DNA from: Naegleria gruberi
Lineage: Eukaryota
DNA: 64,000 bases
Direction: 5' to 3' (one strand)
NCBI GenBank assembly: GCA_000004985.1
Contig: GG738857.1
Below the pieces are notes generated by a model. That model was not told the DNA's origin. It made no database searches and saw nothing but the letters and a program-made list of their open reading frames with translations. Both the position numbers and the translations under genes were made by a program. Below, in pieces: positions 44,228 through 60,177 of the stretch (within the stretch, counting starts at the first letter, position 1; each line of letters starts with the position of its first letter).

Positions 44228-46393
44228 ATGAATATAAATTCTGCAACCATTCCGATCGAAGAATTATTCTCCCAATTCAAACAATATTTACTAAATTACC
44301 TGATCATGGATGAAACTGATGAGAATGATCGTGTATTAATTAATTTAACTTGTAGTAACTCTTCTCCGGGTGCTAATGATGATTGGCATACTATTTCGGG
44401 AGAATTGCAATCGATTTATTTGATCATGATGAATAAGAATCAAAGCACGAGTAATTTTGAAGATAAGAAATTAATAATAATACCACCATGGTTAGACTCT
44501 TTAAATTCCATTGCCAATGTTGAATTTGTTAAACAATTTACAATTGAAGAGAATGATGATGAAATGATTAGAAATTTCAAATTGTTGAGATTGGCTATTG
44601 ATGTCTTTAGAACAGGGATGGCTCAGAGTAGTTTGATAACTGGATTTTTCAAGCATTTCTTTTATTGTCTTGATGAATCTGTTGGAGAGTGTTTGGATTT
44701 GAAAAGACAAGTTAATACTCAACAACTTGTCAGAGTTGTGTTTAATCAATCGACCAAGATACCTGACTGGAAAGTTGGTATTCTTGTCGTATTGGCACAA
44801 ATGATACACCGTTATTTCTTGAATGAGTGGATTGGATTCTATTTGTTTCTTATTCAATATTATAATATAAGAGCTTGGGAGGAAAGATTTATTGAGATGA
44901 CTGATATGGATTACAAACTATTGAATGAATTATTCACTATTCCAATTGACAAGTTTTCGAATCTGTTTAAAGCTAATTTGGCTAAAGTGGTTTACCAACA
45001 TTTCCAATGTTATAATACTAAATTGAAAATTCTTCCAAAATTATTGCAAGAACTTGGTATGCCTGAGCATAATACGCTTATGGAGACATTTAAACACGAG
45101 CTGAACTATGATATGCAAATGATTGTAAATGAGAGCTCCAGAAATCTCAGCTCTGAATCTATCAGAAAGGAGAGAATACTAAAAATATTTTACCTTTGCA
45201 AGGTTTTTTATGGATTCAAACAATTTGGTTCAGAAATAACTGAGCAATTCAAATATTTACATTTGAGTCTTTTACAAAGCAGAGACGAAGAGATTGTACA
45301 AGAGAGTTTGGAAATGCTTCATGTAGCACCTAATATCTCGTCAGCAACAGTCGCATCAAACTCAATAGAATTGATAGTAGTATTGACAGAATTGTTTGAA
45401 CACAGGAAAGAATCTATCAGAGAGGAAGCATACAAATGGTGTTCCAAACTATTAGTTCGAACAACTTGTATGATTGATGCTCCCCTTTGTTCAAAGCAAA
45501 TTCTAAATGCTTTAATGAATGCTCCTGTCCTTACTAATAATCTTATTGAACTAGCCACATCTGCATTCAATTGCTTTAAATATTTGCATGATTACAATGA
45601 ACAATATCTAAATTTTTTCCACAAGATTGTTGAAATATTGCGTATTTCAATCAATAATGACAAAGAGAGAGTGGAAATAACACTACGAGCAATACCCCAA
45701 ATTGTTGATTTAGACACTGAAATTCGTACTGTAATTTTAAATCTTCCTCTAAATGATTTGGTCAACTTTTGCCTCACCAATGAAATTTCAATTCCAACAG
45801 AAATTATCACAATAATCATGGGAATAACTGGTTCTGGTACTGAATTGGTAAAACTTCTTTTATGCACTTCTGATACCAGTCTACACTGTGTTCTAGCTGA
45901 TTTACTGAATAAGAATTTTGTTGAGACAGGTTCTTTATTGATATCACAAGAAGAAATAGACCGTTTGATTAATCAGAAATTGTCTATTTCCCAATTCTTT
46001 AAGAATTATGAGATTAATTGTTTTATTTATAAGGTAGCTCACTTTTATTCTGATACTGTGGGGCTAGCAATACATTTGAATGCATGTCCTGCTTTCATGT
46101 TTGACCAAGTGGATGGGAAAGGAAAAGTTCCTGAAATTGTTGTTTTGAATTATTTAAACTTATTAGAAATTATTCTAGATAGAGAATTTGAAACAATATC
46201 AGACAATGTGGATATCATTATGGAAACACTTGAGGATATTTCAACTCTAGGTTATCCTTTGAAAATACGTGCAATGATTGAACGTATTCTAAAGTTGCTG
46301 CGTTTGCATGACATTGATGATTGGCGTAAAGGTTTTGACCATAATAGCATCCCTGTTTATGAAGGCAATGATGATGATTTAACGTATTGGTAA
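44228..46393 (+). CDS. Hypothetical helical protein, 721 aa, no recognised domain.
   Basis: ATG at 44228 with an in-frame TGA 18 nt upstream. A long clean ORF. The stop at 46391-46393 lies ~6 bp from the stop of the convergent P450 3' exon. Confidence 0.5.
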   Translation: MNINSATIPIEELFSQFKQYLLNYLIMDETDENDRVLINLTCSNSSPGANDDWHTISGELQSIYLIMMNKNQSTSNFEDKKLIIIPPWLDSLNSIANVEFVKQFTIEENDDEMIRNFKLLRLAIDVFRTGMAQSSLITGFFKHFFYCLDESVGECLDLKRQVNTQQLVRVVFNQSTKIPDWKVGILVVLAQMIHRYFLNEWIGFYLFLIQYYNIRAWEERFIEMTDMDYKLLNELFTIPIDKFSNLFKANLAKVVYQHFQCYNTKLKILPKLLQELGMPEHNTLMETFKHELNYDMQMIVNESSRNLSSESIRKERILKIFYLCKVFYGFKQFGSEITEQFKYLHLSLLQSRDEEIVQESLEMLHVAPNISSATVASNSIELIVVLTELFEHRKESIREEAYKWCSKLLVRTTCMIDAPLCSKQILNALMNAPVLTNNLIELATSAFNCFKYLHDYNEQYLNFFHKIVEILRISINNDKERVEITLRAIPQIVDLDTEIRTVILNLPLNDLVNFCLTNEISIPTEIITIIMGITGSGTELVKLLLCTSDTSLHCVLADLLNKNFVETGSLLISQEEIDRLINQKLSISQFFKNYEINCFIYKVAHFYSDTVGLAIHLNACPAFMFDQVDGKGKVPEIVVLNYLNLLEIILDREFETISDNVDIIMETLEDISTLGYPLKIRAMIERILKLLRLHDIDDWRKGFDHNSIPVYEGNDDDLTYW

Positions 46394-46399
46394 CGTGAT

Positions 46400-47039
46400 T
46401 TATTTTCTTGGAATGAAATCAATAAGAAGAGTTTCTTCAGGTCTGAGAGTGACTCTGATATCAACTTTCATCTTGTAATTTGGATTGGAGAGTTTGAATG
46501 AAAAGTGTTTAGCCAATCTTGCCAATGCCAAAACACCTTCAACTTCAGCAAAATGCTTTCCAACTATTTAATCCACATTAATTTGTGTTGAAATAATGCT
46601 AAAACTTACTGCAAATACGTCCTCCAATTCCAAATGGTGTATAAACGAAAGGATTAGTTTGTGGATTGATAAGCTCCTTTTCCTCATTTAAAAATCTTGA
46701 AGGACGGAATTCATCAGGGTTATCCCAATACTTTTCACTTCTCATTGCAGTAACCCAACTGTATAAACAAAGAGTTCCCTTTGGAATATTCAACCCCTTA
46801 AAGTCAACACTCTTTGTCAATTGTCTAATAATTCCAATCGCAACAGGATACAATCTCAAAGTTTCCTTAAAAAGTGCCTTGATGTAATCCAATTTTCCAC
46901 TTTGGAAATCTTCATAATCAAATGTTTCCTTTCCATTCACTTTCTCAAAGTTATCCAAAAAATCGTGGAGTTCTTGTTGAACTTTTGGATTCACACAGAG
47001 ACTATAAATGGCAAATCCAAGAGTTCTTGCAGTCGTCTC
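46400..47039 (-). CDS. Cytochrome P450 3' half (I-helix Thr-Thr through heme-binding loop to C-terminus). Two exons: ~47039..46610 and 46563..46400. The 5' half lies 10 kb away at 57033..58070.
   Basis: The protein starts ETTARTLGFAIYSLCVNPKVQQELHDF, the second half of the I-helix (AGxETT). It continues to KETLRLYP (ExxR), PDEFRPSRF (PERF) and FGIGGRIC (heme Cys). The last codons run into a GTAAGT donor at 46609-46604. A 46-nt intron ends at aaatag (46564), and the final exon encodes IGKHFAEVEGVLALARLAKHFSFKLSNPNYKMKVDIRVTLRPEETLLIDFIPRK, then stops. Confidence 0.65.
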
Positions 47040-47130
47040 AAATATTTTGTTAAACACTTGTAAAATCAATTATAAACCCACCTCATAAAGTCATTTAATA
47101 AAATCCAGTAAATATGTCTTTAAATAAAGG

Positions 47131-49425
47131 TTATTGTGTTTTAACTTTCTTATTTGATTCCTTGTTTGACTTTTGCTTTCTTTTAACAGATACTATTCCT
47201 TCAATTTTTAGAAGTAGTGTCTTAACAGCATTTCTTATTGTCATACGGTCACTTGGAAACCCTAAAGAAGCAATGTATTTCTTCAAGCAGAAAGTGGCAG
47301 CGGATTGATGGTTGTCCATTTCACGAATTTCCCATCTATTCCCATAACCTATTTTAGCAGAAACTAGATCAGTATCAACATTTTGCACTATCATTCCGTT
47401 AAACATTGGGAAGGAGTGATTACTCTTCTTGAAACAGTACATCTTCTTCATTGATTCACCTGTTAATCTTTGAACTGTAAGGTTAAATGCTTTAAACACA
47501 ACATCTGCATTTACTTTCTTTTTCTCAAGTCCTTCACTTTCAAAAATGGTCATGTTCTTACCAGTCATTTTCAAACCTGTAGTTTCTTCACACACTTTAC
47601 CCACGCCAGTCTTTAACCCAAGCATGGTTGCACAATGGTGGACCTGATTAAAGTACTGTTGGTGAGTATCTGAAATTGAACAATTCTGACCAAACGTAAT
47701 ACGATTACTCTCTAATGTGCCATCTCCTTGTACAGAACCTTCAAAAAATTTGTACAAGCTAAACATACCGAAATTGGTAATGTTGAAGATGGAGGAGAAA
47801 TTCTTTCTAGTTTTGTAACTGCCATTATACTTATTACATAACAATTCTATTGCTTTTAAAAATCTGTGTAAGCCAGTACTATTTGTTACTAGTAAAAATG
47901 TATTGAAAGTGAAAAACATACCATGCAGGTGCAACAAGTATGGACCCGGATATTTGATAACCATTTTGTAAGACTCGTTCAATATCCTTGTCAGCATTCT
48001 TATCATTGAGCTTAATGGTGACATACTCTTCCTCTTTCTTGAATTTAAGATCCTCTCTTATTGTCTCTGAATTCAATTCACAAATTTCTTTTAAGAAATC
48101 TGTAAAATAATAGGTTAGTTCTTGCTCATTTTTGGCATTAAAATACAATTTAAAGTATCCTCCATCACCATCTGCTAAATAGGCTCCCAATAATTGAACC
48201 ATTACTCCCTGTTTGTCTTTGGAGTCAACCAGAGTTGGGAAAGTTCTGAACAAAATGTCAAAATCTTTAAAATATTATGAGAATAATTCATAAAATACTT
48301 ACATTCTTTTGTTTGGGTGGTGTCAGTAAGTTGACCACATGGTAATGATGTTCTTACTAGCTTTTCCTTAGATTTCAATTGATAGTTATTAATAATGAAC
48401 ATATTGTCTTGAATATCTGATACAGGTAATCTCACACTACAGTACTCATCTGGACGGACTTGAACTTCATTGGCATAGACGAAACGTTTCTCTTCAACAA
48501 TTCGAGCACATTCATTGAAATGTAATTTTGCTTTGAAACAAGTAGCACTCAACTCTAATACTTCATTTGCTGGAAACAATTTACATTCTGTCATTATTAT
48601 TATTCTTTGAAAATTGTAATTGAAATGAAACTTACCAATTTCTTCCACATTAAATCCAGATTCAATACTATATGTTTCATATGTTCCACTGGAAAGATAA
48701 ATCTCCTCAATGGTTTTTTTGACCAATCTACCAGTTGCAACCTCACGTACACTAAATTCAGTATCTCCAGCCATGTAAGAACGATGAAATGTTTCTTCAT
48801 CAACTTCATCTGCTTGATCCACCAACAAAGTTGATGCTGGAACCCCATTGTATCTACTTGTTGGGATATTGAAGAATTCGTAAAGAGAGATATCATTCAA
48901 ATCTGTCTCTGAAATCGTTGCTTGAAAGATATCGTTCACCTTCTTTTCAATTGGATCATTCTGTCTACTTTCTAATAGCATAAACTGGCGTTGACAAGAA
49001 TGAGCATCTCTGTTGCTGCTAATTAGTTTCTCAATCTCCTTCCACTTCCTTCCATGCAAATTGACTAACTCAGTCAATTCGCGCTTCTCTTCCAAGGTCC
49101 AAAATGGCCTGACGCTGTTGAAATCATTAGAATCCAACCCTTGCTTTCTGACTAAAACATTAAATTGCTGTTGGCAAGCTCTAGCTCCTTTTCCTAATNN
49201 NNNNNNNNNNNNNNNNNNNNNNNNNNNNNNNNNNNNNNNNNNNNNNNNGTCAGTCCAGAACGATCTTTTCCTGCCAAGATTCTTTAACAAATCCTTATAC
49301 TTTTTGTGGCAGGCATTTGGAGTAACATCGAAGTTGGGAGCAATTTCAGTCCAATTGTGGCCTTTTTCCTTTACCAATTTGACCAAAAGATCTTCTTCTT
49401 CTTTTAACCAGTTTTTTCTTATCAT
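47131..49425 (-). CDS. Myb/SANT DNA-binding-domain protein (2 Myb repeats at the N-terminus), ~730 aa, with 1-2 very short introns and one 50-N gap at 49199..49248.
   Basis: N-terminal WLKEEEDLLVKLVKEKGHNWTEIAPNF...CHKKYKDLL and WTLEEKRELTELVNLHGRKWKEIEKLISSNRDAHSCQRQFMLL are Myb-like HTH repeats. The three collinear ORFs 48202..49425, 47879..48253 and 47131..48024 join through a GTAAGT donor at ~48302 and a ttttaaag acceptor (38-nt intron). A possible 33-nt GTATGT...ctag intron near 47930 is otherwise read through in frame. Confidence 0.5.
49199..49248. other. Assembly gap (50 N) inside the Myb-domain gene.
   Basis: A run of exactly 50 n. Confidence 0.95.
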
Positions 49426-49765
49426 TCTGCTATATTGAGTTCTGTGTTGGAATTTGATGTGTTGTTACTTGTAACAAAGTTGAGTCGAAAATAAAAGTAG
49501 TTTTTTTTTTCTCAATTGTATTAATTTGCAAAGTTGTGTGGATGTCTTGAGGGACGTTGCGATATGACTCTTCAATTCTGAGGAAAATTTGTTTGGTCTC
49601 TTTAGATATCCAATTAATGTGTCTTCCAGTTTCGGTCAATCCCTTTTCAATATATATATTTATTCAAGCCTTATAAAAATATTAAAATATTAGAGTGTGA
49701 GACATTTCACACGACTTGAGGTTGTGTGAAAGCTTTTGTTTTTGAAAAAAAAGGAATAATCCATC

Positions 49766-50965
49766 ATGTTGTACAATACATATTTCAACAAGTGGTGTTT
49801 AGTAGAAGAATTAGTAAAGAAGAAATTTTATAGTGAAGTTGTCAGTGATTTCTGTTATTTGGATATCAAGCTAAGGAAGGAATTGACATCTTTTTGGCTT
49901 GGTAACGATCCTATCAATCAAGATGATATTAATGGATTATCAGCAGATTACTCTTGTGATTATTTTGCACTTTGTCTCTTACTTTTGATTTTTAAGGAGA
50001 AGAAGCATGATGACTTTTTATCCATGGATAGTAAATTAGAAGATTTGGCAGATTTACTTGAAATGAACCCTTCTTTGATTTATTTCAAAGAGTTGGAACA
50101 ATGTAATAGTGAATTCAATTTCCAAGCATTTGTTGGAGAGTTTAGTAAGAAGGGAAAAGTGCTTTCACAGACTAGTAATTCAACATTGTTAAACTTGTTA
50201 TTAAACAATGATGACATTGACCTTTACTCTTACACCAATGAGAGATATGAATTGGTTCAACCTTTATTGATTATATCAAGTGCAGAAACTCAGATGGAAG
50301 AACAAGTTGATGTATTTAATGAACCATTGATTCTAACAGAAGATGATGCACTCACTGATGATGATTCTATCGAAATGGCTAGAGCAGATCAAGATGGATA
50401 CTCATCCGTTAGTGAAACTCAAAGTATTGTTTTCCCATATGATGATTTGCCATCTCTAAATGAAGACACGCTTTCCAGTCTTGTAATCAAACCAGATGTT
50501 AGTGGTTTGAATTTAATTGTGGAGTATGAAAAGAAGGAATCTGCAATTATAGCAGATGATGAAAGTATTGACTTTAATGAGAAGGAGGAAGAAGAGATAT
50601 TTGACACTTCAAAGGAAACAGTTCTTCTCATCAATCGTTACAATGAGAATGGTTATATTGAAGAGGAAGCTATCATAGAACCACCTGTTAAGGATGTTAT
50701 TCAATTGAATGAAGAACTTGAAGCCTTTGAAATGGAGTTATTCTTTGAAAAGCAAATGGATAAAGATGATTGTAACAAGTCTGATGAAGGTCCTCCAATT
50801 TGGTACAATATTTGCTTTGGAAATGCTGATCATTGTGAGGATGAAGAAGATGATGAAGAAGAAGATGTTGAAGAAGATTCTTCAGATAGAGGTGGTATTA
50901 GTTCTGATTCAGATAATGATCATAATGTCCATAGACCTATTAAGAAATCCAAATATTTCAAATAA
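49766..50965 (+). CDS. Acidic (D/E-rich) hypothetical protein, 399 aa.
   Basis: ATG at 49766 and a clean ORF. The C-terminus is CEDEEDDEEEDVEEDSSDRGGISSDSDNDH. No domain recognised. Confidence 0.45.
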   Translation: MLYNTYFNKWCLVEELVKKKFYSEVVSDFCYLDIKLRKELTSFWLGNDPINQDDINGLSADYSCDYFALCLLLLIFKEKKHDDFLSMDSKLEDLADLLEMNPSLIYFKELEQCNSEFNFQAFVGEFSKKGKVLSQTSNSTLLNLLLNNDDIDLYSYTNERYELVQPLLIISSAETQMEEQVDVFNEPLILTEDDALTDDDSIEMARADQDGYSSVSETQSIVFPYDDLPSLNEDTLSSLVIKPDVSGLNLIVEYEKKESAIIADDESIDFNEKEEEEIFDTSKETVLLINRYNENGYIEEEAIIEPPVKDVIQLNEELEAFEMELFFEKQMDKDDCNKSDEGPPIWYNICFGNADHCEDEEDDEEEDVEEDSSDRGGISSDSDNDHNVHRPIKKSKYFK

Positions 50966-51039
50966 ATATAGTTGATTGGAGGAGATATAAAAAGTATTTG
51001 TTATAGTGTTTGTTGTAGCTGTGTGGTTATTGTGAGGTA

Positions 51040-51420
51040 CCATACTTGTCAGACACTGTAGGTACTTGTTGAGCACCTTACAAGTCCTTGTAAGGGTACT
51101 TGTGATGGTCCAAGTACTTGTGACGGTACCTGTGATGTTCCTTGTCAGGTACCATTCGTACCTGTGACGGTACCTGTGATGGTACCTAATGGTACCTGTG
51201 ATACCTGCCAAGTACCTGTGACGGTACCTGTGAGGAAATTCAGATACCTGTGACGGTACCTGTGATTGTACTTGTCAGGTACCATTTGCACCTGTGATGG
51301 TACCTGTGGTGGTACCTGATGGTACCTGTGATACCTGCCAAGTACCTGTGATGGTACCTGTGATGGTAAAAATCGTACCTGTGAAGTACCTGTGACGGTA
51401 CCTGACAGGTACCATCACGA
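51040..51420. repeat. Minisatellite of a 12-bp unit GGTACCTGTGAY (contains the palindromic GGTACC KpnI site), ~25 degenerate units organised as two ~125-bp higher-order repeats.
   Basis: The sequence gtacctgtgacggtacctgtgatggtacctaatggtacctgtgatacctgccaagtacctgtgacggtacctgtgagg... recurs from 51115 and again from 51245. It lies in the convergent intergenic spacer between 49766..50965(+) and 51478..53571(-). ORF 50909..51211(-) is a translation of this repeat. Confidence 0.85.
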
Positions 51421-51477
51421 CTTTACAAGAATACAATCAGAATTGCACAGACACAATTCAATTTACTCATTACCAAT

Positions 51478-53571
51478 CTACTTTTTTAACTCTTTGATCA
51501 ATTCTGTCAATCTTCTCTTCTTTTCAGTAATAAGATTATATTCCATTGTTCTCTTTTCAATAGTTTTATCAGCAATCATTGCATAATCATTCTTAACTTG
51601 ACCAAAAATTTCATCCACTAACTCTGTAAACTCTGCAAATCGATTACTTACAGCCTTACTTGACCAATCAATAAGATGTTTAGATACATTTTCATACCAT
51701 GAGTTAAAACACTCTGCATTCCTATCTACCAATCCATTGTTAACAATTTCAAAATCAATACATAAAAGATTTCTCTCCTCAATTCTTGAATTTAATCTTT
51801 CCAAAAATGATTCCTTCATTATGAAACTGTACATTTCCAAAATATCTTTGGAAATATTAACGGTACTTTCCACATAGCATGCTGTAACATCTCCTAATAA
51901 TTGAAGAATGTTCTTCAAGTGGAATAATATCTTTAACCAAAATCCACGAATCAAACCATTGATGGCACCAGTGACCATCTTTAAGAACACCTTCTGATTT
52001 TCAATACTATTAGAATTGTCCGTTCTTTCATCATTTCCAATCAAATCTAGAGCCTTACATAACTCGTCAACAGCTGACTTATTAGGCTTGGAATAGTTCT
52101 GAACATCTCCCTTAAAGGAATGAAATGGCATGTTCAAAATTAAATATTTCAGGTAAAATAGTTCCTGTTTCAATACAGATTTTAGATCATGTGCTTTGGT
52201 ATTCTTTGTTGTGAAATGCCTATTTTGAGTCTTGTTACTAGTTAACAAAACTTTCAAAGATTTCGAAAATATTTGAAAATAGTATTGATCATCTATATCA
52301 GATTCCTCATGTTCCTTAATTCTAACACTATAATTATTGGAATAGTTATGAATAATGGTATTAATGGATTCCACTGTTGAATCAGATATATGTAAAATAT
52401 TAATAAATACTATCAATGTTGATTCATTGATATTGTTAAAGAATATTCCCTTGAATAATGGCAATGCCGCAAGGAATGGAGTAATGTTAGCATTCTCATG
52501 CTTGGAGAGAGTTTGAAACTCATTCTCTTTGAATTCTATTGAATCAAGCATGTTAGAAAAGAGGAAAATAAGAAATTGTTTCCTCTTCTTGAAATCACTT
52601 TCAATAATATTATTAATAAAATTAATATTAAAAGAAAAAAATGATTGGTGAAGAGTATTTTCACTTTGACTAATAACATTTTGATAATCTAATAGAATAT
52701 CATTGATTTGTTCCTTTGAAGCACCCTTAGTAGGGTTTGTTTCAAAGGCAATACAATAAATGTTATTGACCTTTGAATGGTATTGTCTAAACAAACCATT
52801 GAATACTTCACTATTAATATCAGTGGATCTATCCACTTTTGTTTTCACTATTGAAAAATTCTTTAATCCTTTAGGAATTAAAAGCTTCTCAATTGTTCCA
52901 CTTATATTCGATGAACCCACAGTGGTGTCCATTAATTCGAATAGAAGAATGTGATCATTCATTGAGAGATTGTTTCCAATAATTGAGTTGGTAAACTCAC
53001 TACCAGAGTTCAATCTCATCCCTGGAAAATCCGTAATCCTGTAGGGAATTACAATGTTGTCTCCAAAAAGATGAAGATGGACACATTCACTTGTGAAAAC
53101 ATCAATGTCATAGGAAAATGATGTATACTTGCTGATTAATTCAGTTACCTTCATGTTGATAATATTTCTAATATTTTCAAAATTAGTTGAAGAAGATAAA
53201 TCAAACTCCATTGAACAATTCAATTTGGTGATTTTCACAATCAATTTTGTGAATCCACCACCACTGTTTGATGCACCAGTGGTATTATCGTCGGTAATAA
53301 TAGTATTTGAATGATAAATATTACCACCAGAATGATTATCATATTCATGAATTGGATGAACATGATAAACGAAAGGACATTTAGTACCAACATTCAATTG
53401 AATAACACCTAAGGGAACCTGTAAATACTCCCTCAAGAATGTACTCTTTCCACATGATTCCAATCCAAGAAGAGCAAAAGAAATTGGTTCGATAAGATGA
53501 AGAAACTCTTCTTTATCACCCTGGTTGACAAAGTAATTGCTTACTAATTTAATATCTTGTTGATTAATCAT
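51478..53571 (-). CDS. Dynamin-family large GTPase-domain protein, 697 aa.
   Basis: ATG at 53571. P-loop ISFALLGLESCGKSTFLREYLQVPLGVIQLNVGTKCPF, compared with dynamin LPxIVVVGxQSxGKSSVLEx.VG.dfLPRG.GivTR.P. DLPG-like ITDFPGMRLNSG. TKxD-like FSIVKTKVD. The long helical C-terminal region is consistent with a dynamin/Mx-type stalk. Confidence 0.5.
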   Translation of the reverse strand: MINQQDIKLVSNYFVNQGDKEEFLHLIEPISFALLGLESCGKSTFLREYLQVPLGVIQLNVGTKCPFVYHVHPIHEYDNHSGGNIYHSNTIITDDNTTGASNSGGGFTKLIVKITKLNCSMEFDLSSSTNFENIRNIINMKVTELISKYTSFSYDIDVFTSECVHLHLFGDNIVIPYRITDFPGMRLNSGSEFTNSIIGNNLSMNDHILLFELMDTTVGSSNISGTIEKLLIPKGLKNFSIVKTKVDRSTDINSEVFNGLFRQYHSKVNNIYCIAFETNPTKGASKEQINDILLDYQNVISQSENTLHQSFFSFNINFINNIIESDFKKRKQFLIFLFSNMLDSIEFKENEFQTLSKHENANITPFLAALPLFKGIFFNNINESTLIVFINILHISDSTVESINTIIHNYSNNYSVRIKEHEESDIDDQYYFQIFSKSLKVLLTSNKTQNRHFTTKNTKAHDLKSVLKQELFYLKYLILNMPFHSFKGDVQNYSKPNKSAVDELCKALDLIGNDERTDNSNSIENQKVFLKMVTGAINGLIRGFWLKILFHLKNILQLLGDVTACYVESTVNISKDILEMYSFIMKESFLERLNSRIEERNLLCIDFEIVNNGLVDRNAECFNSWYENVSKHLIDWSSKAVSNRFAEFTELVDEIFGQVKNDYAMIADKTIEKRTMEYNLITEKKRRLTELIKELKK

Positions 53572-53673
53572 AATGAAGATGATGATGATGATGAAGAGTA
53601 TATAACGTCTTTGAACAATTGAATGATGATGTTTTTAGAAAACCAAAGATATTGAATAAGTGCAAACAATAAA

Positions 53674-53822
53674 TACAATTCACATTGTGTGAAATGAACC
53701 AATTCACAACGTGTGTGAAATGAACCAATTCACATTGGGGTGAAAGAACCAATTCACAACGAAGGAACCAATTCACAACGTGTGTGAAAGATCCAATTCA
53801 CAACGAAAGAACCAATTCCATG
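53674..53822. repeat. Promoter-proximal tandem array (~7 copies) of a ~16-26-bp unit GAACCAATTCACAACG(TGTGTGAAAT), 100-250 bp upstream of the dynamin-like gene's ATG.
   Basis: caattcacattgtgtgaaatgaaccaattcacaacgtgtgtgaaatgaaccaattcacattggggtgaaagaaccaattcacaacgaaggaaccaattcacaacgtgtgtgaaagatccaattcacaacgaaagaaccaattcc. Each unit carries CCAAT. Confidence 0.6.
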
Positions 53823-54245
53823 AATTAACAATAAGAAATATACAATCCCAATAGTAACACTGCAAGATTAATCAAAAACTCTAAAACAGACCAGTATTAT
53901 TTATCGAATAAATATTTTACACTTTAAGAAACAGCACTCCACATTCATTAACTTATAAACCCGTTCAGAATATTCTGAATGACAAGAGTATCTTCTTGAA
54001 ATATCTTTAGGCTTTATAAAATGGAAGATGTCATGATATTACAATCTTTACAATAGATACAAGTCAAGTATCCAATCAGAAAGTCACTCAATCATGTACT
54101 CACCTATTTCCAACCAATGAATTTAATATGAAAGGAATGACCTTGTCTCGGAAAATAAGCATGTTTCATGAATTGATACACCTATCACTGTCATTTATAC
54201 AAGAAGGATTAAAAGCTCAATATCTAAGAATATTGTTACATTTGA

Positions 54246-54456
54246 ATGAGATTAAAAATGATAAACGTAGAGGACCAATTAGAAATACTTAAGAGTGGAG
54301 ATTTGCTTTCTAAATTGAAAATTTCTTCAAAACCCACAAGAATGGTCATTCTCGTAGAGAATATTAATAGTATTTTCCAAAATGTCTTGATTAATGAGGC
54401 TAAGAAATACTGTGGTGGTAAGACAAGCAAGATAATTCATGAACAAGCCAACCCTG
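54246..54456 (+). CDS. Short ORF (70 aa) ending at a GTATGT donor, possibly the first exon of a small gene whose second exon I could not phase. The K/E-rich ORF 54526..54894 lies downstream. Uncertain.
   Basis: ATG at 54246 (MRLKMINVEDQLEILKSGDLLSKLKISSKPTRMVILVENINSIFQNVLINEAKKYCGGKTSKIIHEQANPG), then GTATGT at 54457. Neither downstream AG (54497-98, 54536-37) restores the frame of 54526..54894. Confidence 0.25.
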
Positions 54457-55127
54457 GTATGTATATTCTAATATTATTATTTTATTTAATACAATTAAGT
54501 AAACAATCCAATTAATGTTTCATTTGTGTACAATGAGAAAGCAATGATCATGTACATAAATGTCTCAAAGGAAAAGAACAAGTTGAAAAAACTTGTTACT
54601 GAAGAAGAGCACGTCACTTTCTTCAAGATTTCCAAATCTCAGACACAAATCAACGAAGCTGATATATTTGGAAATTTGGAAAATCAAATTTCCAAATTTG
54701 TGTTCAATGAAGAGCAAGAGAAAAGAAAGCGAACAGTTGAAGATGAAGACAAAGAAAAGAAGAAGAGACGTGATGATTGTGAAGAAGAATTAGAGCAAGA
54801 GGAAATTGTTAATGGAAATCCACATTATATGGATTCATATGAAAAAGGAATTTACAATATCTTGAAATCTGTTTGGTTGAGAAACAATAAATAAAATATT
54901 ATTTTTATTAAATATTATTTTTTAAATATTAACCTCTGCAACACACCATCAAATCAGGAACAGATCTAACCATTTATTATTAACAATACAATAATTATTA
55001 TTTATAAACTAAAAGGAATGAAATCAAGATGGTACTAAGTGACAATGAAACTGGGGACGGATGAGACGGAGAACACTCAGTTTCTTACTACAGACCAAAC
55101 AAAGCCAATACTGTTAATGTGAAAACA

Positions 55128-55287
55128 AGAGACATCACCAGCCACCATTATAAATATTCATCACAGTTGCCACCATTATAAATATTTATCACGGTTGCTT
55201 TAAATTACATTGCCCACCATTATAAATATTCATCACGGTTGCTTCATACATCACCAGCCACCAATATAAATATTCATCACTGCAGCC
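55128..55287. repeat. Four tandem copies of a ~35-bp unit CCACCATTATAAATATTCATCAC(A/G)GTTG, each carrying a TATAAATA motif, immediately upstream of the JmjC-like gene.
   Basis: catcaccagccaccattataaatattcatcacagttgccaccattataaatatttatcacggttgc...cccaccattataaatattcatcacggttgc...cagccaccaatataaatattcatcactgcagcc. The array ends 21 bp before the ATG at 55308. Confidence 0.6.
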
Positions 55288-55307
55288 ATGTTCATCCTAA
55301 TAAAAAA

Positions 55308-56651
55308 ATGAAACAGCTTTCGTTGTCTAATTTAAAGACCAACAAAGCATTATCGGAACAATTAAAGTCAAAAATTAAACAAACAATTACTAATCCTGTT
55401 GTTGATGGAAACAAATGTAATATTGATTTTAAGGAAGAATTAAAAAAGTTTCATAAAGATGCTGTTGAATTAATTGAACCTAACAAAGATCTAAATGTTC
55501 AATCCGATGATAAATGTTTAATTTGTAAAAGTGATTGTGATATAAAGAATCATTTTAAGTCTCATATTAATTCACATTCTCTCTTTCAAGATTTAGTTAA
55601 CAATAGTGAAATTTTAGAATTGTCTGATAAATCATTAGAAGCAAATAATTTATATTTTAAATTCAAGATAAATGAAGAAGAATTGAAAATGTTAACTGAA
55701 ATTACTAATAACACACTACAACAAAATATTATTGATTTAGATATTTCTAATTATAGTTCAATTATTAATCATAACAAATTTATTACAAATATTAAAGATA
55801 TTAAAGAAATATTAAATAATACTAATAATAACTTTCAACAAAGAGAAAATGGATTTTATTTTCATAAGTATTTTAAAGAAGATCAAGTTAAAATATTATC
55901 ACCTAAAAATGCATTGGAAAATTTATTTAATGATCTTTGGATATCATTATCCAGTTTTACTGGAACCATTTTACATATTGATACTAATGATTATATTAGA
56001 AAAATCAAGAATATTCATTATAATTTATGTGGATTGAAATTATATTACTTTTTTGTTCCACCTTGTATTATGAATAATAATTTGGAAATTGAAAATGAAG
56101 AAATGGCAAGTCTATATTTAGATTTTGATATAAATAGACATCTTCATAATTTAATTATTTACTTTTTAACAAGAAAAAGAAGTATTGATTTGTTATTTTT
56201 AGAATCTATTGGAATTCATATATGTGTTTGTAAAAGGGGTGAAGGTATTGTATTTCCAGAAACCTTACCTCATGGTACAATTAATTTATCACCTGTTACT
56301 ATCTCTATTGGTCATGCTTGGATGAGTTATAATAATTTGGATAGTTTTTCAGGTAAAAATGATTATACTTTTGACACTTATAGTACTAAGAGTATATATT
56401 TGGAATTATTTAATAATATTTTATGTAATTTACAAAAAGAAGAGATGAATAATGTAAATATTTATTCATTTGAGTGGAAAATGTTGTTAATTGGAAAATG
56501 TTTATTTTATTTACAACAAGACTATATCGAAGATCAATTAAAATATACATTAATTGATATTATTAAAATTATTAATAAGGGTAATTTAGTGTTTGATTTA
56601 ATTGATGGTTTAATTAATCAAGTTGGTTCAAAAAGAAATAAATTAATTTAA
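55308..56651 (+). CDS. JmjC-domain-like protein with an N-terminal C2H2-type zinc-finger-like motif, ~447 aa.
   Basis: The first in-frame ATG is at 55308 (MKQLSLSNLK). The ORF-track start at 55239 is non-ATG. CLICKSDCDIKNHFKSHINSH fits a C-x2-C...H-x3-H pattern. FTGTILHIDTNDY...IHYNLCGLKLYYFFVPP matches the JmjC core (T.FH.D.....W...i.G.K.W.l.pP) with the HxD iron ligands. A second His follows (ETLPHGTIN). Assigned from memory, not by profile search. Confidence 0.45.
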   Translation: MKQLSLSNLKTNKALSEQLKSKIKQTITNPVVDGNKCNIDFKEELKKFHKDAVELIEPNKDLNVQSDDKCLICKSDCDIKNHFKSHINSHSLFQDLVNNSEILELSDKSLEANNLYFKFKINEEELKMLTEITNNTLQQNIIDLDISNYSSIINHNKFITNIKDIKEILNNTNNNFQQRENGFYFHKYFKEDQVKILSPKNALENLFNDLWISLSSFTGTILHIDTNDYIRKIKNIHYNLCGLKLYYFFVPPCIMNNNLEIENEEMASLYLDFDINRHLHNLIIYFLTRKRSIDLLFLESIGIHICVCKRGEGIVFPETLPHGTINLSPVTISIGHAWMSYNNLDSFSGKNDYTFDTYSTKSIYLELFNNILCNLQKEEMNNVNIYSFEWKMLLIGKCLFYLQQDYIEDQLKYTLIDIIKIINKGNLVFDLIDGLINQVGSKRNKLI

Positions 56652-56664
56652 TAAATAAAAAAAA

Positions 56665-57060
56665 ATGAATTATTTAGCATCACGGGTAAAAAAGAGAAGT
56701 GAAAGGTTTAATTTGAATAATGATGATACAATTTATGAAGTATCATTTGTTGATGAAAGTGAAGATGATGGAAATAATGATGATAGTAGTGATGAAGATA
56801 ATGACGGAAATGGTGGAAATAATAATGAATATGATTATGAAGATGAGAAAATAATGGATGATGAATATAATAAATTTGATGATATTAATGGCACCAATAA
56901 TACAACATTAAACACTAATAATAACTCAACATCAAATATTAATATTGATCATTTAGATGATGTTGGAGGAGATATGAATGATGATATAATATTTAATAAC
57001 AACAATAATTTTTCTGATAAATTAATAATACACTCGTGGCCAGCGACCAAAAGAACAAAA
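56665..57060 (+). CDS. Low-complexity acidic/Asn-rich ORF, uncertain. Its tail (57061..57297) is antisense to P450 exon 2 and is probably a chance read-through.
   Basis: ATG at 56665, 13 bp after the previous stop. The composition is D/N/E-rich (DESEDDGNNDDSSDEDNDGNGGNNNEYDYEDEK). No domain recognised. Confidence 0.25.
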
Positions 57061-58070
57061 GAATTCGATATCAATTCATCATCTGAGAGAACTCCTCCAG
57101 TTTCCTTGTTATTTCTACGTTCTTTCAATAGGAGAGAGAGGATATCATTGGATTCTTCTGCCAAATTGTTTTCACGTTCTCTCTTGGCAATGATTTCTTT
57201 AATGACATTACGGAAAGAGTCAACTGAGTCATGGATTTTTGCTAACATGCCAACTTTTACATTCTTTCTGAGGAATTGGGTTGGAACTACACGATAGAAA
57301 TCAGCATTTCCTAAAAAGATATTGGTTTTGGTTTCCAGAGTTTCTTCTCCAGGTTTAGAATAGAATGAATCGAAAGAATATCCAAAACCTGCCTTACCAA
57401 TAACATCCTATTGTAATAGGTTAAAATATTCTCAATTCATTCAATAACATACCATAGTCAACTTGGCAAAATCACTCATAACATCTCTTCTCTTCAAATC
57501 CTTCATAATATTTGGAACCATATCATTCTCCAATGTATTATTTGTAACACTTGCCACCAAACTCAAAGATTGTGGAGTAAATCCAGGATCTATCAAGTGT
57601 CTTTGATGTGACCAAGTTTGATGATCATCCTCAGCAAAGATATTCGAACCAAGGAACAATTCTAAAAAGGTTCTCTTTTGCATGGCATTCTTCTTGTAAA
57701 GTTTGGCACCTTTAGTTGCAATTTCCTTTCCCATATCAGGATCTGTTATGACAAGGAATGGAAATCCAATCATTCCCAACATGATTTTATAATAATCTTG
57801 AGATTGTCCTCTTGTCAACTCGATTATTGTTTCTGGTTGAAAAGGAATTCCAGGATTGGACAAGTATCCATTCGGAACCATCCACTTTGGCAAAATACTC
57901 ATCACAATAGGAGGAATGAACTGTTGATATCCCTTCTCGATATGAACAAATTGTTTCTTCATCTTTGTATATTGCAAATAACGTTCCACCATGAAAACTG
58001 CAATTAAAACAATGGAAACAACAATGGATCCGATGAGAAGCCACCCAAAGGAAGATAAATATTCAATCAT
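57033..58070 (-). CDS. Cytochrome P450 5' half (membrane anchor through the first half of the I-helix, ending ...LLVAGHE). Two exons: 58070..57453 and 57407..57033.
   Basis: ATG at 58070. TM anchor MIEYLSSFGWLLIGSIVVSIVLIAVF. Pro-rich hinge PNGYLSNPGIPF. GFPFLVITDPDMGKEI. An exon ends at ...DFAKLTM with a GTATGT donor at 57452-57447. A 45-nt intron ends at ttacaatag (57408), and exon 2 reads DVIGKAGFGYSFDS...SDDELISNSFVLLVAGHE. P450 homology stops exactly at GAG (57035..57033). The downstream sequence tgtattatt... has no canonical splice donor in a usable phase. Confidence 0.65.
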
Positions 58071-58399
58071 TCGTTGTCAAAAGAAGTTTGTGTTTGTTTT
58101 TTTTTGTTTGTTGAAGTTTTGATGTGTTTTTGTGATGATTAATTTTTATTCTCCATCCAACATGTGCGTTTTGTTACGTCCGATGATAACATCCGAATCA
58201 AATGGGGAATTGAGCCTTATTTGAGTTTCAGAAAAAATAGTTCTGGAATTTTGATTGTTGTATAGTACATATTGTAAAAGGAAGATAAATTCATTGTTAT
58301 TGTAAAAGTGTTTGAGACCATGTTTTAACAACATCAAATGTGAAATTGAAACTTCCAAAAATCATATTGTAAATTGCTCTTCAATATCTTTAAAAAAAA

Positions 58400-59089
58400 A
58401 TGTCTCAAGTTAAAACAGCTCACGATTTGCACAGTTCCGATGCCAGACCAGCAAAAGAAATTAAAAAATTAGATTCCGATGGAAATTACACACCATTTGA
58501 AGGGTTGACCATTGTTATGCAAATTTGTGAACAAGATTTGAAATTTGGTGAAAGATTATTCAAGGATTTGGAGAGTACAGTCCCAAAGAAGGCTCACTCC
58601 TTGTTACCTTATCAGAGTTATCATGTGACATTGTGTGGACTTGTTTGTAGAAATCATTTTGAATCTTGTCAAGATTACAATAATTTCATTGATGAACATT
58701 ATGAAAATTTGAAAAAATTACAACAAGAATTGGATCAAATTTGTGGAAATTCTCAAATAACCTATCGTGTTGATACGGAAACTATGAAAAAATCAAGTCT
58801 TTCCAAATTGACTGGTCATTTACTTGTGAGAAATAACGATTCTGCAGAATTACTCAACAAATGTTTTGAGAAATGTAAGGAAATTCTCAAAATTGATTTG
58901 AGAATGAGTGAAGCTCATTTGAGTTTGGCTTATCCACCTCCAAAAGGAAAGAAGATGAATGCAGAGCAACGTAAAACAGTTCAACAAGTGATGGATAAAC
59001 ACTTTGATTCGAGTTGTGTCTTGGTTTTTGAAAGACCTAGAATTTGCTTTTTCAAAGACATGTGCGAATTCATTCCAATATTTAATTAA
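58400..59089 (+). CDS. 2H-phosphoesterase-superfamily-like protein (two H-x-T/S-x motifs), 229 aa.
   Basis: ATG at 58400. YHVTLCGL and AHLSLAYPP give the two H-x-[TS]-x motifs ~90 residues apart, typical of LigT/CPDase/AKAP18-type 2H enzymes. Identification is by motif only. Confidence 0.4.
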   Translation: MSQVKTAHDLHSSDARPAKEIKKLDSDGNYTPFEGLTIVMQICEQDLKFGERLFKDLESTVPKKAHSLLPYQSYHVTLCGLVCRNHFESCQDYNNFIDEHYENLKKLQQELDQICGNSQITYRVDTETMKKSSLSKLTGHLLVRNNDSAELLNKCFEKCKEILKIDLRMSEAHLSLAYPPPKGKKMNAEQRKTVQQVMDKHFDSSCVLVFERPRICFFKDMCEFIPIFN

Positions 59090-59109
59090 ACTAAATATTA
59101 AACTAAAGG

Positions 59110-60177
59110 TTAATTTATAGTAGAAAATTGATCTAACACATCAAAGGGATTATTCTGTGCACACCAAGTTAGTGAGATATTACAATTTGTTTGAAGATCA
59201 TCAATACTGTTATTGGAACTATCAAAACTTGATTGACTAACTAAATCAAGGTCGCTTTCAGATAAAAACTCATCAGAATCATCCACAGTTTCGACTGGAG
59301 GATGATCATTAACCAAAAGCTTCAAAAGTTCCATTTCCAAATCAGTAACCTCACCAGACTCTAGAATGAAACTTTCGCATGGTGATTGTTTAGTTTCCAC
59401 TACAGTTGGATTCAATTGATTCGAATTAAAAACAGTATTGCAAATTTCAGCATCTTCAAACAAATTTTCAAATTTCTCATCAAGGTATGAACTCACTGAA
59501 GTGTTTTCACTTTCAATTTGAGTTGATCTTTCAACATATGAAATTTGGTTTCTAATTTGAATTGAGTTACAACGAGTTTGATTGACTTTTTTCTTTTTTC
59601 TTCTAGTCTGACAGCTGTCAACACTATCTACTGATATACTATCATCTGAACAATATTCCTTCAATCTCTTTACAGCTCCTCTCTTTACCTTCTTTGTAAC
59701 TTCTGAATACAAGAACATGTGACATGTACTGCCACAAATCACTTGTGTCACTCTACATGAACCAGAACTTGTCTTTCCCTTCTCAGTTCTCTTTTGGAAA
59801 AGTGCAAGTGAAATCTTGAGATCAAATATTTTCCCACCAAATTCTTCCAAAGAAATGGTCAACTCTCCAGTTGGTCGTAATTTATCAACAGGCTCATATT
59901 CATTCACTATATCTAATATTCCAAGCATTGATTTTGACTTGTTCAATTTGTTAATTTGAGAATCGCTAAGTTGTTGTTTACCAAGTGCTTTTCTTGTATT
60001 AAAATGCATGTCAATAATTTTGACATTGGCATGTAAAATTAAGAATACTCTGGCAATTGGAACGGGTGAAGTAGAGTTGAATTGAAGTTTGACTCCACAT
60101 GCATACTCTTCAGTTGTCAAATCATGTCCAATATTGTACTCTTTCATAACAAGTGACATTTCTCTTTTCTCTCTCAC
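59110..60177 (-). CDS. Hypothetical protein, 355 aa, full-length paralog of the truncated CDS at 1..998 (inverted orientation).
   Basis: ATG at 60177 (MREKREMSLVMKEYNIGHDLTTEEYACGVKLQF...). It is ~90% identical in protein to the window-start gene and diverges only in the last ~25 residues. A basic RRKKKKVNQTR patch suggests an NLS. Convergent with 58400..59089 across a 20-bp spacer. Confidence 0.6.
   Translation of the reverse strand: MREKREMSLVMKEYNIGHDLTTEEYACGVKLQFNSTSPVPIARVFLILHANVKIIDMHFNTRKALGKQQLSDSQINKLNKSKSMLGILDIVNEYEPVDKLRPTGELTISLEEFGGKIFDLKISLALFQKRTEKGKTSSGSCRVTQVICGSTCHMFLYSEVTKKVKRGAVKRLKEYCSDDSISVDSVDSCQTRRKKKKVNQTRCNSIQIRNQISYVERSTQIESENTSVSSYLDEKFENLFEDAEICNTVFNSNQLNPTVVETKQSPCESFILESGEVTDLEMELLKLLVNDHPPVETVDDSDEFLSESDLDLVSQSSFDSSNNSIDDLQTNCNISLTWCAQNNPFDVLDQFSTIN

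What the first reader, a model, noticed from the sequence alone, without database searches (positions are those of the whole stretch)
47033..57039. Cytochrome P450 gene split into two halves by a ~10-kb segment carrying six other genes, with a GAG trinucleotide at both junctions
The 5' half (anchor, PGP hinge, I-helix up to LLVAGHE, ending at GAG 57035..57033) and the 3' half (starting GAG-ACG-ACT = E-TTARTLGF..., through ExxR, PERF, FGIGGRIC and the C-terminus) together make one complete ~534-aa P450. Each half has its own small GT-AG intron. They are separated by 9,996 bp containing the Myb gene, an acidic protein gene, a minisatellite, the dynamin-like gene, the JmjC-like gene and others on both strands. 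No GT...AG pair in a usable phase exists at the junctions, so a giant host intron is unlikely. The shared GAG could be a 3-bp target-site duplication of a large insertion, or coincidental. Alternatives are an ancient inversion or translocation breakpoint, or a chimeric assembly join.
Basis: partly seen in the sequence, partly recalled or inferred. Interest (0 to 1): 0.65.

Follow-up and report, generated by a model that had tools for sequence, protein, structure and literature searches.

The report
P450 gene split at an intron
In the amoeba Naegleria gruberi, one cytochrome P450 gene has about 10 kb of other genes sitting exactly where its relatives have a short intron, and the intron's start signal is damaged, so this is most likely a very recently broken gene and not a new kind of genetic element.

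Summary
The window is Naegleria gruberi NEG-M. Two minus-strand pieces (58070..57033 and 47036..46400) join into one 527-aa P450, giving a single Pfam match at E 4e-70. They are separated by 9,996 bp that carry five annotated genes plus one unannotated acidic ORF.

The break (AGHE|TT in the I-helix) is exactly where the N. lovaniensis and N. fowleri orthologues have a canonical phase-0 GT..AG intron of 96 and 155 nt. The downstream "GAG" therefore contains the intron's AG acceptor, with a TTAAC branch-like motif 13 nt upstream. It is probably not a target-site duplication.

The donor is damaged: GAG|TGTATT, where every credible intron in the window starts GTA[AT]GT. One in-frame GT..AG pair does exist, but it would insert seven residues into the I-helix. 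The block has no terminal repeats and no recognisable transposase. An acidic ORF runs into its upstream edge without a stop codon.

GenBank lists the 5' half as a truncated 358-aa protein (EFC46892). Against a 97.7%-identical metagenome strain, the 5' half shows 6 synonymous and 0 non-synonymous changes. Any inactivation is therefore very recent, or the gene still works.

Best reading: gene-bearing DNA landed in an old intron, leaving a young split pseudogene. This is a curiosity of known kind.

The parts
57453..58070 (-). P450 exon 1 (ATG at 58070; membrane anchor and N-terminal part)
   Evidence: Translation. The 209-aa ORF is identical in ENA metagenome contig L005.
57408..57452 (-). Small intron 1, 45 nt, GTATGT...TTAAC...ATAG
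   Evidence: The metagenome strain has a 5-nt indel here.
57033..57407 (-). P450 exon 2, ending ...LLVAGHE with GAG at 57035..57033
   Evidence: GenBank model EFC46892 (358 aa) reads on into CIINLSEK...SSK*.
57025..57032 (-). Damaged 5' splice site: TGTATTAT instead of GTA[AT]GT. GT occurs only at phase 2 (57033-57032) and phase 1 (57031-57030).
   Evidence: Direct reading. Compared with the window introns and with the orthologue donors GTAAGT and GTAGGT.
47037..57032 (-). The 9,996-nt block between the two halves. It occupies the position of the conserved phase-0 intron.
47037..47130 (-). 94 nt between the stop codon of the Myb gene and exon 3. It contains TTAAC (47053-47049) and the acceptor ttgAG (AG at 47038-47037), and is the likely remnant of the old intron's 3' end. 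An alternative acceptor AG lies at 47058-47057.
   Evidence: Direct reading.
46610..47036 (-). P450 exon 3 (TTARTLGF ... ExxR, PSRF, FGIGGRIC)
46564..46609 (-). Small intron, 46 nt, GTAAGT...ATAG. The same position is used in N. lovaniensis.
46400..46563 (-). P450 last exon with stop codon, 6 nt from the stop of the convergent 721-aa gene (44228..46393)
47131..49425 (-). Gene in the block: Myb-repeat protein (EFC46890, JGI model 558 aa). My model has short introns at 48302-48265 and 47921-47879, and possibly 48635-48570. Its C-terminal two thirds are an orphan carrying two LAGLIDADG-like motifs.
49199..49248 (.). 50-N assembly gap inside Myb repeat 2
   Evidence: Myb repeats continue on both sides.
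49766..50965 (+). Gene in the block: 399-aa acidic protein EFC46778. A 98.7%-identical copy (EFC38866) lies on a 297-kb scaffold.
51081..51415 (.). Minisatellite (units of 44 and 130 nt) between two convergent genes
51478..53571 (-). Gene in the block: 697-aa P-loop protein EFC46891. No family match, so 'dynamin-like' is not confirmed.
54246..54894 (+). Gene in the block: two-exon gene of about 201 aa, with a 43-nt intron at 54457-54499
55309..56651 (+). Gene in the block: 447-aa protein EFC46780. No family match, so 'JmjC-like' is not confirmed. GC is only 22-26% here.
56665..57297 (+). Unannotated acidic N/D-rich ORF. It reaches the junction at 57032/57033 without a stop codon and runs on for 88 codons antisense to P450 exon 2. 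It looks like a gene cut off at the edge of the block.

Best explanation
The structure is real in the N. gruberi NEG-M genome. This P450 is the closest N. gruberi relative of N. lovaniensis P0001 and N. fowleri P0008. It once had a short phase-0 intron between the codons for AGHE and TT, as its orthologues still do. About 10 kb of gene-bearing chromosomal DNA now lies inside that intron. It most likely arrived through double-strand-break repair or a segmental insertion, not through a transposon with defined ends (inferred). The intron's 3' end survives (TTAAC ... gAG). Its 5' splice site does not (GAG|TGTATT). Canonical splicing therefore cannot rebuild the enzyme: the 5' half terminates 27 codons past the junction, and the 3' half has no start codon of its own. 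The locus is therefore most likely a very young split pseudogene on this haplotype, too young to have picked up any stop codon, frameshift or amino-acid change. The intact paralogue P0006 lies on the same scaffold.

Shown: the two halves, the conserved intron position, the state of the splice sites, the absence of terminal repeats, and the truncated annotation.
Inferred: the insertion event, its mechanism, and the loss of function.
For: The halves form one P450. The organism and annotation are established: EFC46892 is a truncated 358-aa model, and neither a 527-aa nor a 534-aa joined protein is in the 15-billion-protein collection.

Canonical phase-0 introns lie exactly at GAG|AC in N. lovaniensis (96 nt) and N. 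fowleri (155 nt). The codon before the break is GAG, as in the intron-bearing species, whereas the intron-less relatives have GAA. The N. gruberi P450 itself uses GAA 27 times and GAG 8 times.

The acceptor carries TTAAC at the same distance as in intron 1. All credible window introns start GTA[AT]GT, and the junction has TGTATT.

Without the block, the P450 would fit snugly between its neighbours, with 330 nt to the divergent 58400 gene and 6 nt to the convergent 721-aa gene. The block has no direct or inverted terminal repeats. No transposase domain was found and no viral relatives. An acidic ORF is cut at the block's edge.

Both junctions lie inside contigs, 2.1 and 7.8 kb from the only gap, and a Myb repeat continues across that gap.

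The 5' half shows 6 synonymous and 0 non-synonymous differences from a 97.7%-identical strain, P about 7e-5 under neutrality. Any inactivation must therefore be recent.
Against: No read-level, transcript or second-strain evidence for either junction could be obtained. Metagenome contig L005 stops 133 nt short of the junction.

The clean selection signal fits a still-functional gene equally well. The donor is only a 1-nt change from GAG|GTATTA or GAG|GTGTAT, so a reference error or a tolerated weak donor cannot be excluded.

G at -3 of the acceptor is atypical, which leaves some room for a true GAG duplication.

The source of the block is unknown. The known extra copies are partial. The synteny of the block genes in other Naegleria could not be checked.
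Confidence: 0.55

Rival explanations
1. The gene is still functional. The ancestral intron has simply grown to 10 kb and hosts nested genes. It is removed by cis-splicing from a weak or non-canonical donor, or the reference carries a 1-nt error at 57032.
For: Both halves are fully open and exactly complementary. The acceptor and the branch-like motif are intact. There are 6 synonymous and 0 non-synonymous changes against a diverged strain. One in-frame GT..AG pair exists (57031 with 47057). Removing T57032 would give a phase-0 GT..AG intron that restores AGHE|TT exactly (direct reading).
Against: The donor lacks the GTA[AT]GT seen in every credible intron here. Those introns are 38-66 nt, and the orthologue introns are 96-155 nt, so 10 kb would be at least 60 times longer. 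The block holds genes on both strands, which would need their own transcription termination. The only in-frame pair inserts LFNKIFE between the G of AGxxT and the acid-alcohol pair of the I-helix. No joined protein is in the public collections.
Confidence: 0.17
2. A large mobile element inserted into an intron-less GAG-ACG site and duplicated 3 bp (GAG). On this reading, the coincidence with the intron position in other species is accidental or reflects a preferred target.
For: GAG is present at both junctions. G at -3 is unusual for an acceptor here, at 0 of 8 credible introns. The intron is absent from Willaertia and from two other heterolobosean relatives, so its presence in the N. gruberi ancestor is not proven. 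A Myb-domain gene lies at the edge of the block.
Against: There are no terminal inverted or direct repeats. No transposase or integrase domain was found. The upstream end cuts an ORF. An exact-nucleotide coincidence with a conserved intron site has a chance of roughly 1-3 in 1,580 positions. TTAAC sits at branch-point distance.
Confidence: 0.1
3. Assembly artefact: the block, or one of the contigs, was wrongly placed inside the P450 in the 2010 Sanger assembly.
For: There is a 50-N gap inside the block. Near-identical partial copies of block genes lie on another scaffold, so the region was hard to assemble.
Against: Neither junction is at a gap. Two independent chimeric joins would each have to fall exactly on an exon boundary and keep the halves collinear. 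The Myb gene continues across the gap. No repeat is shared by the junctions.
Confidence: 0.06
4. The halves are transcribed separately and joined by trans-splicing (as in Giardia split introns), or they are fragments of two different paralogues.
For: The acceptor is intact. The halves lie on the same strand, 10 kb apart.
Against: The flanks show no complementarity: duplex energy is -32.9 kcal/mol against -42.9 +/- 5.2 for shuffles. There is no canonical donor. The halves abut without overlap or gap and share the same nearest homologues.
Confidence: 0.03

Closest known systems
Genes nested in introns, and introns enlarged by inserted DNA (common in animals; my own knowledge)
   Same: Other complete genes, on both strands, lie between two exons of a host gene at a genuine, phylogenetically conserved intron position. 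The host's acceptor is intact.
   Different: The host donor site is not canonical. The genome is compact, with introns of about 40-150 nt, and no transcript evidence shows that the host gene is still spliced.
Young insertional or segmental-rearrangement pseudogene
   Same: The reading frame is interrupted by foreign chromosomal DNA with ragged ends, one of which cuts an ORF. There are no element termini. The public annotation gives a truncated protein (EFC46892). An intact paralogue is present (P0006).
   Different: No disabling mutation exists anywhere in 527 codons, and no amino-acid change against a 2.3%-diverged strain. Loss of function rests only on the damaged donor and the size of the block.
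Introner-type DNA transposons that create introns and borrow a splice site from their target-site duplication (Huff, Zilberman and Roy 2016; my own knowledge, not re-read here)
   Same: A short direct repeat containing AG flanks the insert. The downstream copy would serve as the 3' splice site, and the upstream copy ends the exon.
   Different: Introners are short (about 0.1-1 kb), multi-copy, have defined ends and supply a GT. Here the insert is 10 kb of single-copy genes, has no defined ends, and lacks GT at +1.
WHO/HO elements of budding yeasts (Coughlan et al. 2020, PMC7282813)
   Same: A gene with intein-like and LAGLIDADG-like motifs fused to a DNA-binding domain lies directly upstream of a 3' fragment of a host gene, in the same orientation. 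WHO genes are likewise followed by FBA1 3' fragments.
   Different: WHO homing keeps the host gene intact by bringing a replacement 3' end, and no second P450 3' end is present here. Endonuclease homology is not supported by Pfam, NCBIfam, PDB or AlphaFold. The DNA-binding domain is Myb, not a zinc finger.
Giardia split introns / trans-spliced split genes (my own knowledge)
   Same: Two halves of one coding sequence lie apart, with splice-site-like sequence at the 3' half.
   Different: No base-pairing between the flanks and no canonical donor. The halves are collinear on one strand.

Membership tests
Cytochrome P450 (Pfam PF00067) | Full-length match to the family profile above the curated cut-off | tested here: met
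   The joined 527 aa score 237 bits against a cut-off of 22.8, as one stretch covering profile positions 39-456 of 462.
Cytochrome P450 (Pfam PF00067) | Heme-binding FxxGxRxCxG, ExxR, and I-helix AGxxTT | tested here: met
   FGIGGRICIG and ETLR are in the 3' half. AGHE|TT is formed only when the two halves are joined.
U2-type spliceosomal intron | Position shared with orthologues | tested here: met
   Phase-0 GT..AG introns lie at the same codon boundary in N. lovaniensis (96 nt) and N. fowleri (155 nt).
U2-type spliceosomal intron | GT at +1/+2 directly after the conserved exon end, with the local consensus GTA[AT]GT | tested here: not met
   The sequence is GAG|TGTATT. GT occurs only one base early or one base late (consensus).
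U2-type spliceosomal intron | AG acceptor in phase, with an upstream branch-like motif | tested here: met
   ttTTAACaaaatatttgAG|ACG. G at -3 is atypical.
U2-type spliceosomal intron | Actually removed from the transcript | not testable with these tools
   No transcript data. No joined protein is in the collections.
Cut-and-paste DNA transposon with 3-bp TSD (e.g. CACTA, Harbinger) | Terminal inverted repeats | tested here: not met
   No repeat links 47037-47130 with 56950-57032. The ends were also read directly.
Cut-and-paste DNA transposon with 3-bp TSD (e.g. CACTA, Harbinger) | Transposase gene | tested here: not met
   Pfam finds only Myb repeats in the block. NCBIfam finds nothing.
Cut-and-paste DNA transposon with 3-bp TSD (e.g. 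CACTA, Harbinger) | Target-site duplication | tested here: inconclusive
   GAG is at both junctions, but the second copy doubles as the acceptor of a conserved intron.
Helitron | 5'-TC ... CTRR-3' ends, inserted between A and T | tested here: not met
   The junctions read GAG|TGTATT and ATATTT|GAG (the 3-nt repeat makes this boundary ambiguous within GAG). On the other strand they read CTC|AAATAT and AATACA|CTC.
Split intron / trans-splicing (Giardia type) | Extended complementarity between the two intron halves | tested here: not met
   The duplex energy is weaker than in 297 of 300 shuffles.
LAGLIDADG / intein-derived endonuclease (HO, WHO, VDE); applies to the Myb gene, not the P450 | Significant match to the LAGLIDADG or Hint profiles, or to solved structures | tested here: not met
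   Pfam, NCBIfam and PDB searches at E up to 10 give nothing relevant. The AlphaFold models have pLDDT 48 and 53, and Foldseek gives no hit.
LAGLIDADG / intein-derived endonuclease (HO, WHO, VDE); applies to the Myb gene, not the P450 | Two LAGLIDADG motifs about 100-130 residues apart | tested here: inconclusive
   LLGAYLADGDG and FFEGSVQGDGT are the only two matches to a loose motif in 50.7k ORF residues, and both are in this gene. The pattern was chosen post hoc.

The most novel reading that the evidence does not exclude
The 10-kb block is a mobile unit carried into a spliceosomal intron by the nuclease-like Myb/LAGLIDADG-motif gene at its downstream edge. This would be a homing-type element in a nuclear protein-coding gene, loosely like the yeast WHO elements. 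The P450 would survive because the whole block is spliced out as a giant intron. A milder version is simply a working 10-kb, six-gene intron in a genome whose introns are about 40-150 nt; I put that at about 0.15.
Probability: 0.03. Interest if true: 0.85.

Novelty: new member of a known kind. Interest (0 to 1): 0.33.

Why it matters
The practical value is annotation. EFC46892 (D2V903) is the 5' half of a P450 whose 3' half (47036..46400) is unannotated, so the N. gruberi P450 count and orthology tables are off by one.

Biologically, it is a datable snapshot. Gene-bearing DNA has landed in a short, conserved intron of a compact protist genome, and the host gene has no other damage. If the gene is dead, this shows how introns act as soft landing sites and how quickly a splice site is lost. 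If the gene is alive, it would be an exceptional giant intron with nested genes in Naegleria. One RT-PCR would decide between the two.

Tried and rejected
(1) To save capped searches, I concatenated three proteins into one query for the search for homologous proteins, once for block genes and once for flanking genes. Both returned nothing, not even the proteins' own database entries. The results are uninformative and the searches were wasted. As a result I could not test the synteny of the block genes and the flanking genes in N. lovaniensis and N. fowleri.

(2) Exact-sequence look-ups for ORFs that span either junction found nothing. Metagenome contig L005 ends 133 nt before junction 1.

(3) JGI metagenome scans with degenerate patterns for the exon ends gave 0 hits.

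(4) Viral contig scans with two block proteins gave no relatives, so there is no sign that the block is an integrated virus.

(5) The LAGLIDADG/intein idea for the Myb gene got no support. Pfam, NCBIfam and PDB sequence searches were negative. Exon 4 has no homologue other than itself among 1.84 billion representative proteins. Two single-sequence AlphaFold models had low confidence and Foldseek returned noise.

(6) Split-intron pairing was rejected.

(7) The idea that the whole block is a recent copy of the locus on the 297-kb scaffold is not supported. Only a partial copy is documented there, and another partial copy with a different breakpoint exists in the metagenome strain.

(8) The N. 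gruberi genome paper is not in the held library, so intron and heterozygosity figures from it are not quoted.

Full report
**What is there.**
All of this is on the minus strand. Exon 1 (58070..57453), a 45-nt GT-AG intron and exon 2 (57407..57033) encode 331 residues ending ...LLVAGHE. Exon 3 (47036..46610), a 46-nt GT-AG intron and exon 4 (46563..46400) encode 196 residues starting TTARTLGF and ending at a stop codon. The joined 527 residues give one uninterrupted Pfam p450 match, residues 98-516 on profile positions 39-456 of 462, E 4e-70. tblastn with ten homologues shows each one running up to 57033 and resuming at 47036-47039, with no residue lost or repeated. The gap is 9,996 nt. GAG occurs at 57035..57033 and at 47039..47037.

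**Organism and annotation.**
Four ORFs of the window are exact matches to Naegleria gruberi NEG-M proteins on a 573,072-bp scaffold. GenBank annotates the 5' half as a truncated 358-aa 'predicted protein', EFC46892/D2V903. That model is exon 1 plus exon 2 plus 27 read-through codons (CIINLSEK...SSK*). The 527-aa joined protein and a 534-aa variant are not in the 15-billion-protein collection. The best homologues are N. lovaniensis P0001 (60% identity) and N. fowleri P0008. The intact N. gruberi paralogue P0006 is only 48% identical to this gene and 51% to P0001, so the split gene is the closer N. gruberi counterpart of P0001.

**The key fact: a conserved intron.**
In N. lovaniensis the orthologue reads ...GCT GGA CAT GAG|gtaagt...(96 nt)...tgcag|ACC ACT GCT. 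In N. fowleri it reads ...GCA GGA CAT GAG|gtaggt...(155 nt)...ttaaag|ACG ACT GCA. The N. gruberi gene is interrupted at exactly this phase-0 position. Willaertia and two uncultured relatives have no intron there and use GAA for the glutamate. N. gruberi has GAG, as the intron-bearing species do, although its P450 uses GAA 27 times and GAG 8 times. That is a mild sign of a former donor context.

**Junction anatomy.**
- *Downstream junction.* The sequence ...gtgtTTAACaaaatatttgAG|ACGACT looks like an ordinary Naegleria 3' splice site. Intron 1 of the same gene has TTAAC at the same distance from its AG. The second 'GAG' is therefore g plus the acceptor AG. G at -3 is unusual: none of eight credible window introns has it.
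- *Upstream junction.* The sequence is GAG|TGTATTATTAAT. Every credible intron in the window begins GTAAGT or GTATGT, and the orthologue introns begin GTAAGT and GTAGGT. GT is present only one base early (phase 2) or one base late (phase 1).
- *The one in-frame pair.* The late GT (57031-57030) can pair in frame with an upstream AG (47058-47057). However, the product carries LFNKIFE inside the AGxxTT motif of the I-helix.
- *How close to canonical.* The sequence is one deleted T, one added G, or a restored GTA away from a phase-0 GT donor. So part of the old intron's 5' end may still be present with a small lesion.

**The block.**
The block carries:
- A Myb-repeat gene (49425..47131, minus strand; EFC46890).
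- A 399-aa acidic gene (EFC46778).
- A minisatellite.
- A 697-aa P-loop gene (EFC46891).
- A two-exon gene of about 201 aa.
- A 447-aa gene (EFC46780).
- An unannotated acidic ORF (from 56665, plus strand).

The acidic ORF reaches the junction without a stop codon and continues for 88 codons antisense to P450 exon 2. Only the Myb label is supported. 'Dynamin-like' and 'JmjC-like' find no match in Pfam, NCBIfam or PDB.

The block has no terminal direct or inverted repeats, no transposase or integrase domain and no relatives in viral contigs. Its upstream 3 kb is markedly AT-richer, at 22-29% GC against 32-35% elsewhere.

If the block were removed, the P450 would sit tightly between its neighbours. 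It would lie 330 nt from the divergent gene at 58400 and 6 nt from the stop of the convergent 721-aa gene. So the P450 looks like the resident and the block like the newcomer.

**Real or artefact.**
The only gap (49199-49248) lies inside the second Myb repeat, and the repeat continues on both sides, so the scaffold join is sound. Both junctions lie within contigs. Two independent misjoins that each fall on an exon boundary and leave the halves collinear are very unlikely. An independent ENA metagenome assembly (ERZ929261) holds a strain 97.7% identical. It covers window 59439..57166 (L005) and 54529..52536 (L006), but L005 stops 133 nt before junction 1. No contig spanning a junction could be retrieved.

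**Functional state.**
Between NEG-M and the metagenome strain, the 286 comparable codons of the 5' half differ at six codons. All six changes are synonymous. With 175 synonymous and 683 non-synonymous sites, the chance of this under neutrality is about 7e-5. By my own arithmetic from those figures, roughly 11-12 replacements would be expected if the NEG-M branch had been neutral throughout. Zero observed limits a pseudogene phase to about the last quarter of that branch or less. So either the disruption is very recent or the gene still works. The flanks show no complementarity that could support trans-splicing. The 3' half has no ATG before residue ~98, so it cannot be translated on its own.

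**Most likely history.**
A short ancestral intron received about 10 kb of chromosomal DNA with ragged ends. Break repair or a segmental insertion is inferred from the cut ORF and the lack of element termini. The donor site was lost at that time or soon after. This copy now yields only the truncated product that GenBank lists. Confidence is about 0.55 for the whole statement and about 0.8 for 'real structure at a former intron'. The rivals are:
- A still-spliced giant intron (0.17).
- A mobile element making a 3-bp TSD in an intron-less allele (0.10).
- Misassembly (0.06).
- Trans-splicing or independent fragments (0.03).

**Where the block came from is unresolved.**
NEG-M has, on a 297-kb scaffold, a copy holding only the last 118 residues of the 697-aa gene (99.2% identical) plus the whole 399-aa gene (98.7%). 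The metagenome strain has a 92%-identical piece starting inside the 399-aa gene at about window 50662, preceded by 485 nt of unrelated DNA. So pieces around the minisatellite have been copied more than once. Nothing shows the block moving as a unit.

**A lead, not a finding.**
With short introns (38 and 43 nt), the Myb gene encodes about 716 residues. After three Myb repeats come AGDTEFSV...(intein block-A-like), LLGAYLADGDGGY, FFEGSVQGDGTL about 134 residues later, and HSFPMFNGMIVQN (block-G-like). These resemblances are recalled from memory. A loose regular expression for the motif hits only these two places in 50.7k ORF residues of the window and fetched loci. But:
- Pfam, NCBIfam and PDB searches are negative.
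- Exon 4 has no homologue except itself among 1.84 billion representative proteins.
- The AlphaFold models are unreliable, at pLDDT 48 and 53.
- Foldseek finds nothing.

The gene lies 94 nt upstream of the P450 3' fragment, in the same orientation. This recalls the yeast WHO elements, where an HO-like gene is followed by a 3' fragment of its host gene (PMC7282813). But WHO homing keeps the host gene whole by supplying a new 3' end, and that is not seen here.

**Comparison and verdict.**
The locus works like, and most probably is, an intron-targeted insertional disruption, or at best a gene-hosting intron. Both are known kinds of event. It fails the tests for a terminal-repeat transposon, a Helitron, a split-intron system and, on present evidence, a homing element. 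It is a new instance of a known kind. It is useful for correcting the annotation and as a cleanly datable example. It is only moderately interesting unless transcripts prove that the 10-kb block is spliced out.

Noticed in passing
window 47131-49425 (-): Myb-repeat gene (EFC46890). With 38- and 43-nt introns, it encodes two LAGLIDADG-like motifs about 134 residues apart, plus intein block-A-like and block-G-like strings. The JGI 558-aa model skips the first motif. The C-terminal part has no homologue other than itself among 1.84 billion representative proteins. Profile and structure tests were negative or uninformative.
   Followed up: partly
window 1-1074 and 59037-60113: Inverted repeat, 92% identical over 1,089 nt, about 58 kb apart. 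It covers the 3' part of gene 59110..60177 and a paralogue at 78..998. The two copies bracket both P450 halves.
   Followed up: no
window 13950-16620, 18950-22600, 28550-32490: Family of kinase genes with many DUF4116 repeats (17 stretches in one ORF) and 75-nt tandem repeats, 85-96% identical between copies. A 50-N gap at 30807-30856 lies inside one copy.
   Followed up: partly
window 60567-60639 (+) and 60706-60845 (-): A tRNA-Lys(CTT) gene and a U4 spliceosomal snRNA gene (Rfam 53 bits, gathering score 46) lie next to each other.
   Followed up: no
window 58400-59089 (+): A 229-aa ORF with a weak 2H-phosphoesterase/DUF1868 match. The NEG-M sequence is not in the protein collection, so it may be unannotated. 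The metagenome strain's version is called as a gene on L005.
   Followed up: partly
L008 1-485, versus window about 50662: A metagenome contig carries only the last 86 codons of the 399-aa gene plus the minisatellite (92% identity), preceded by unrelated DNA. NEG-M has another partial copy (the last 118 aa of the 697-aa gene plus the 399-aa gene) on its 297-kb scaffold. The minisatellite neighbourhood has been copied in fragments.
   Followed up: partly
window 39740-44037 (+): The NHL-repeat ORF (39740..42268) and the EGF/kinase ORF (42316..44037) are joined in frame by a 53-nt GTATGT...TTAG intron (42261-42313). They are probably one receptor-kinase gene.
   Followed up: no
window 53676-53818 and 55132-55288: Short tandem arrays sit in the upstream regions of block genes. 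One has units of about 25 nt (CAATTCACAACG.GTGAAAGAAC). The other has units of about 44 nt (CCACCATTATAAATATTCATCAC). They may be promoter elements.
   Followed up: no
L002 10001-13301 (N. fowleri VFQX01000047): The 738-aa N. fowleri model P0008 fuses the P450 with the neighbouring UVSSA gene and mis-reads the I-helix region. The DNA has a normal intron at AGHE|TT, so this is an annotation error in that genome.
   Followed up: partly
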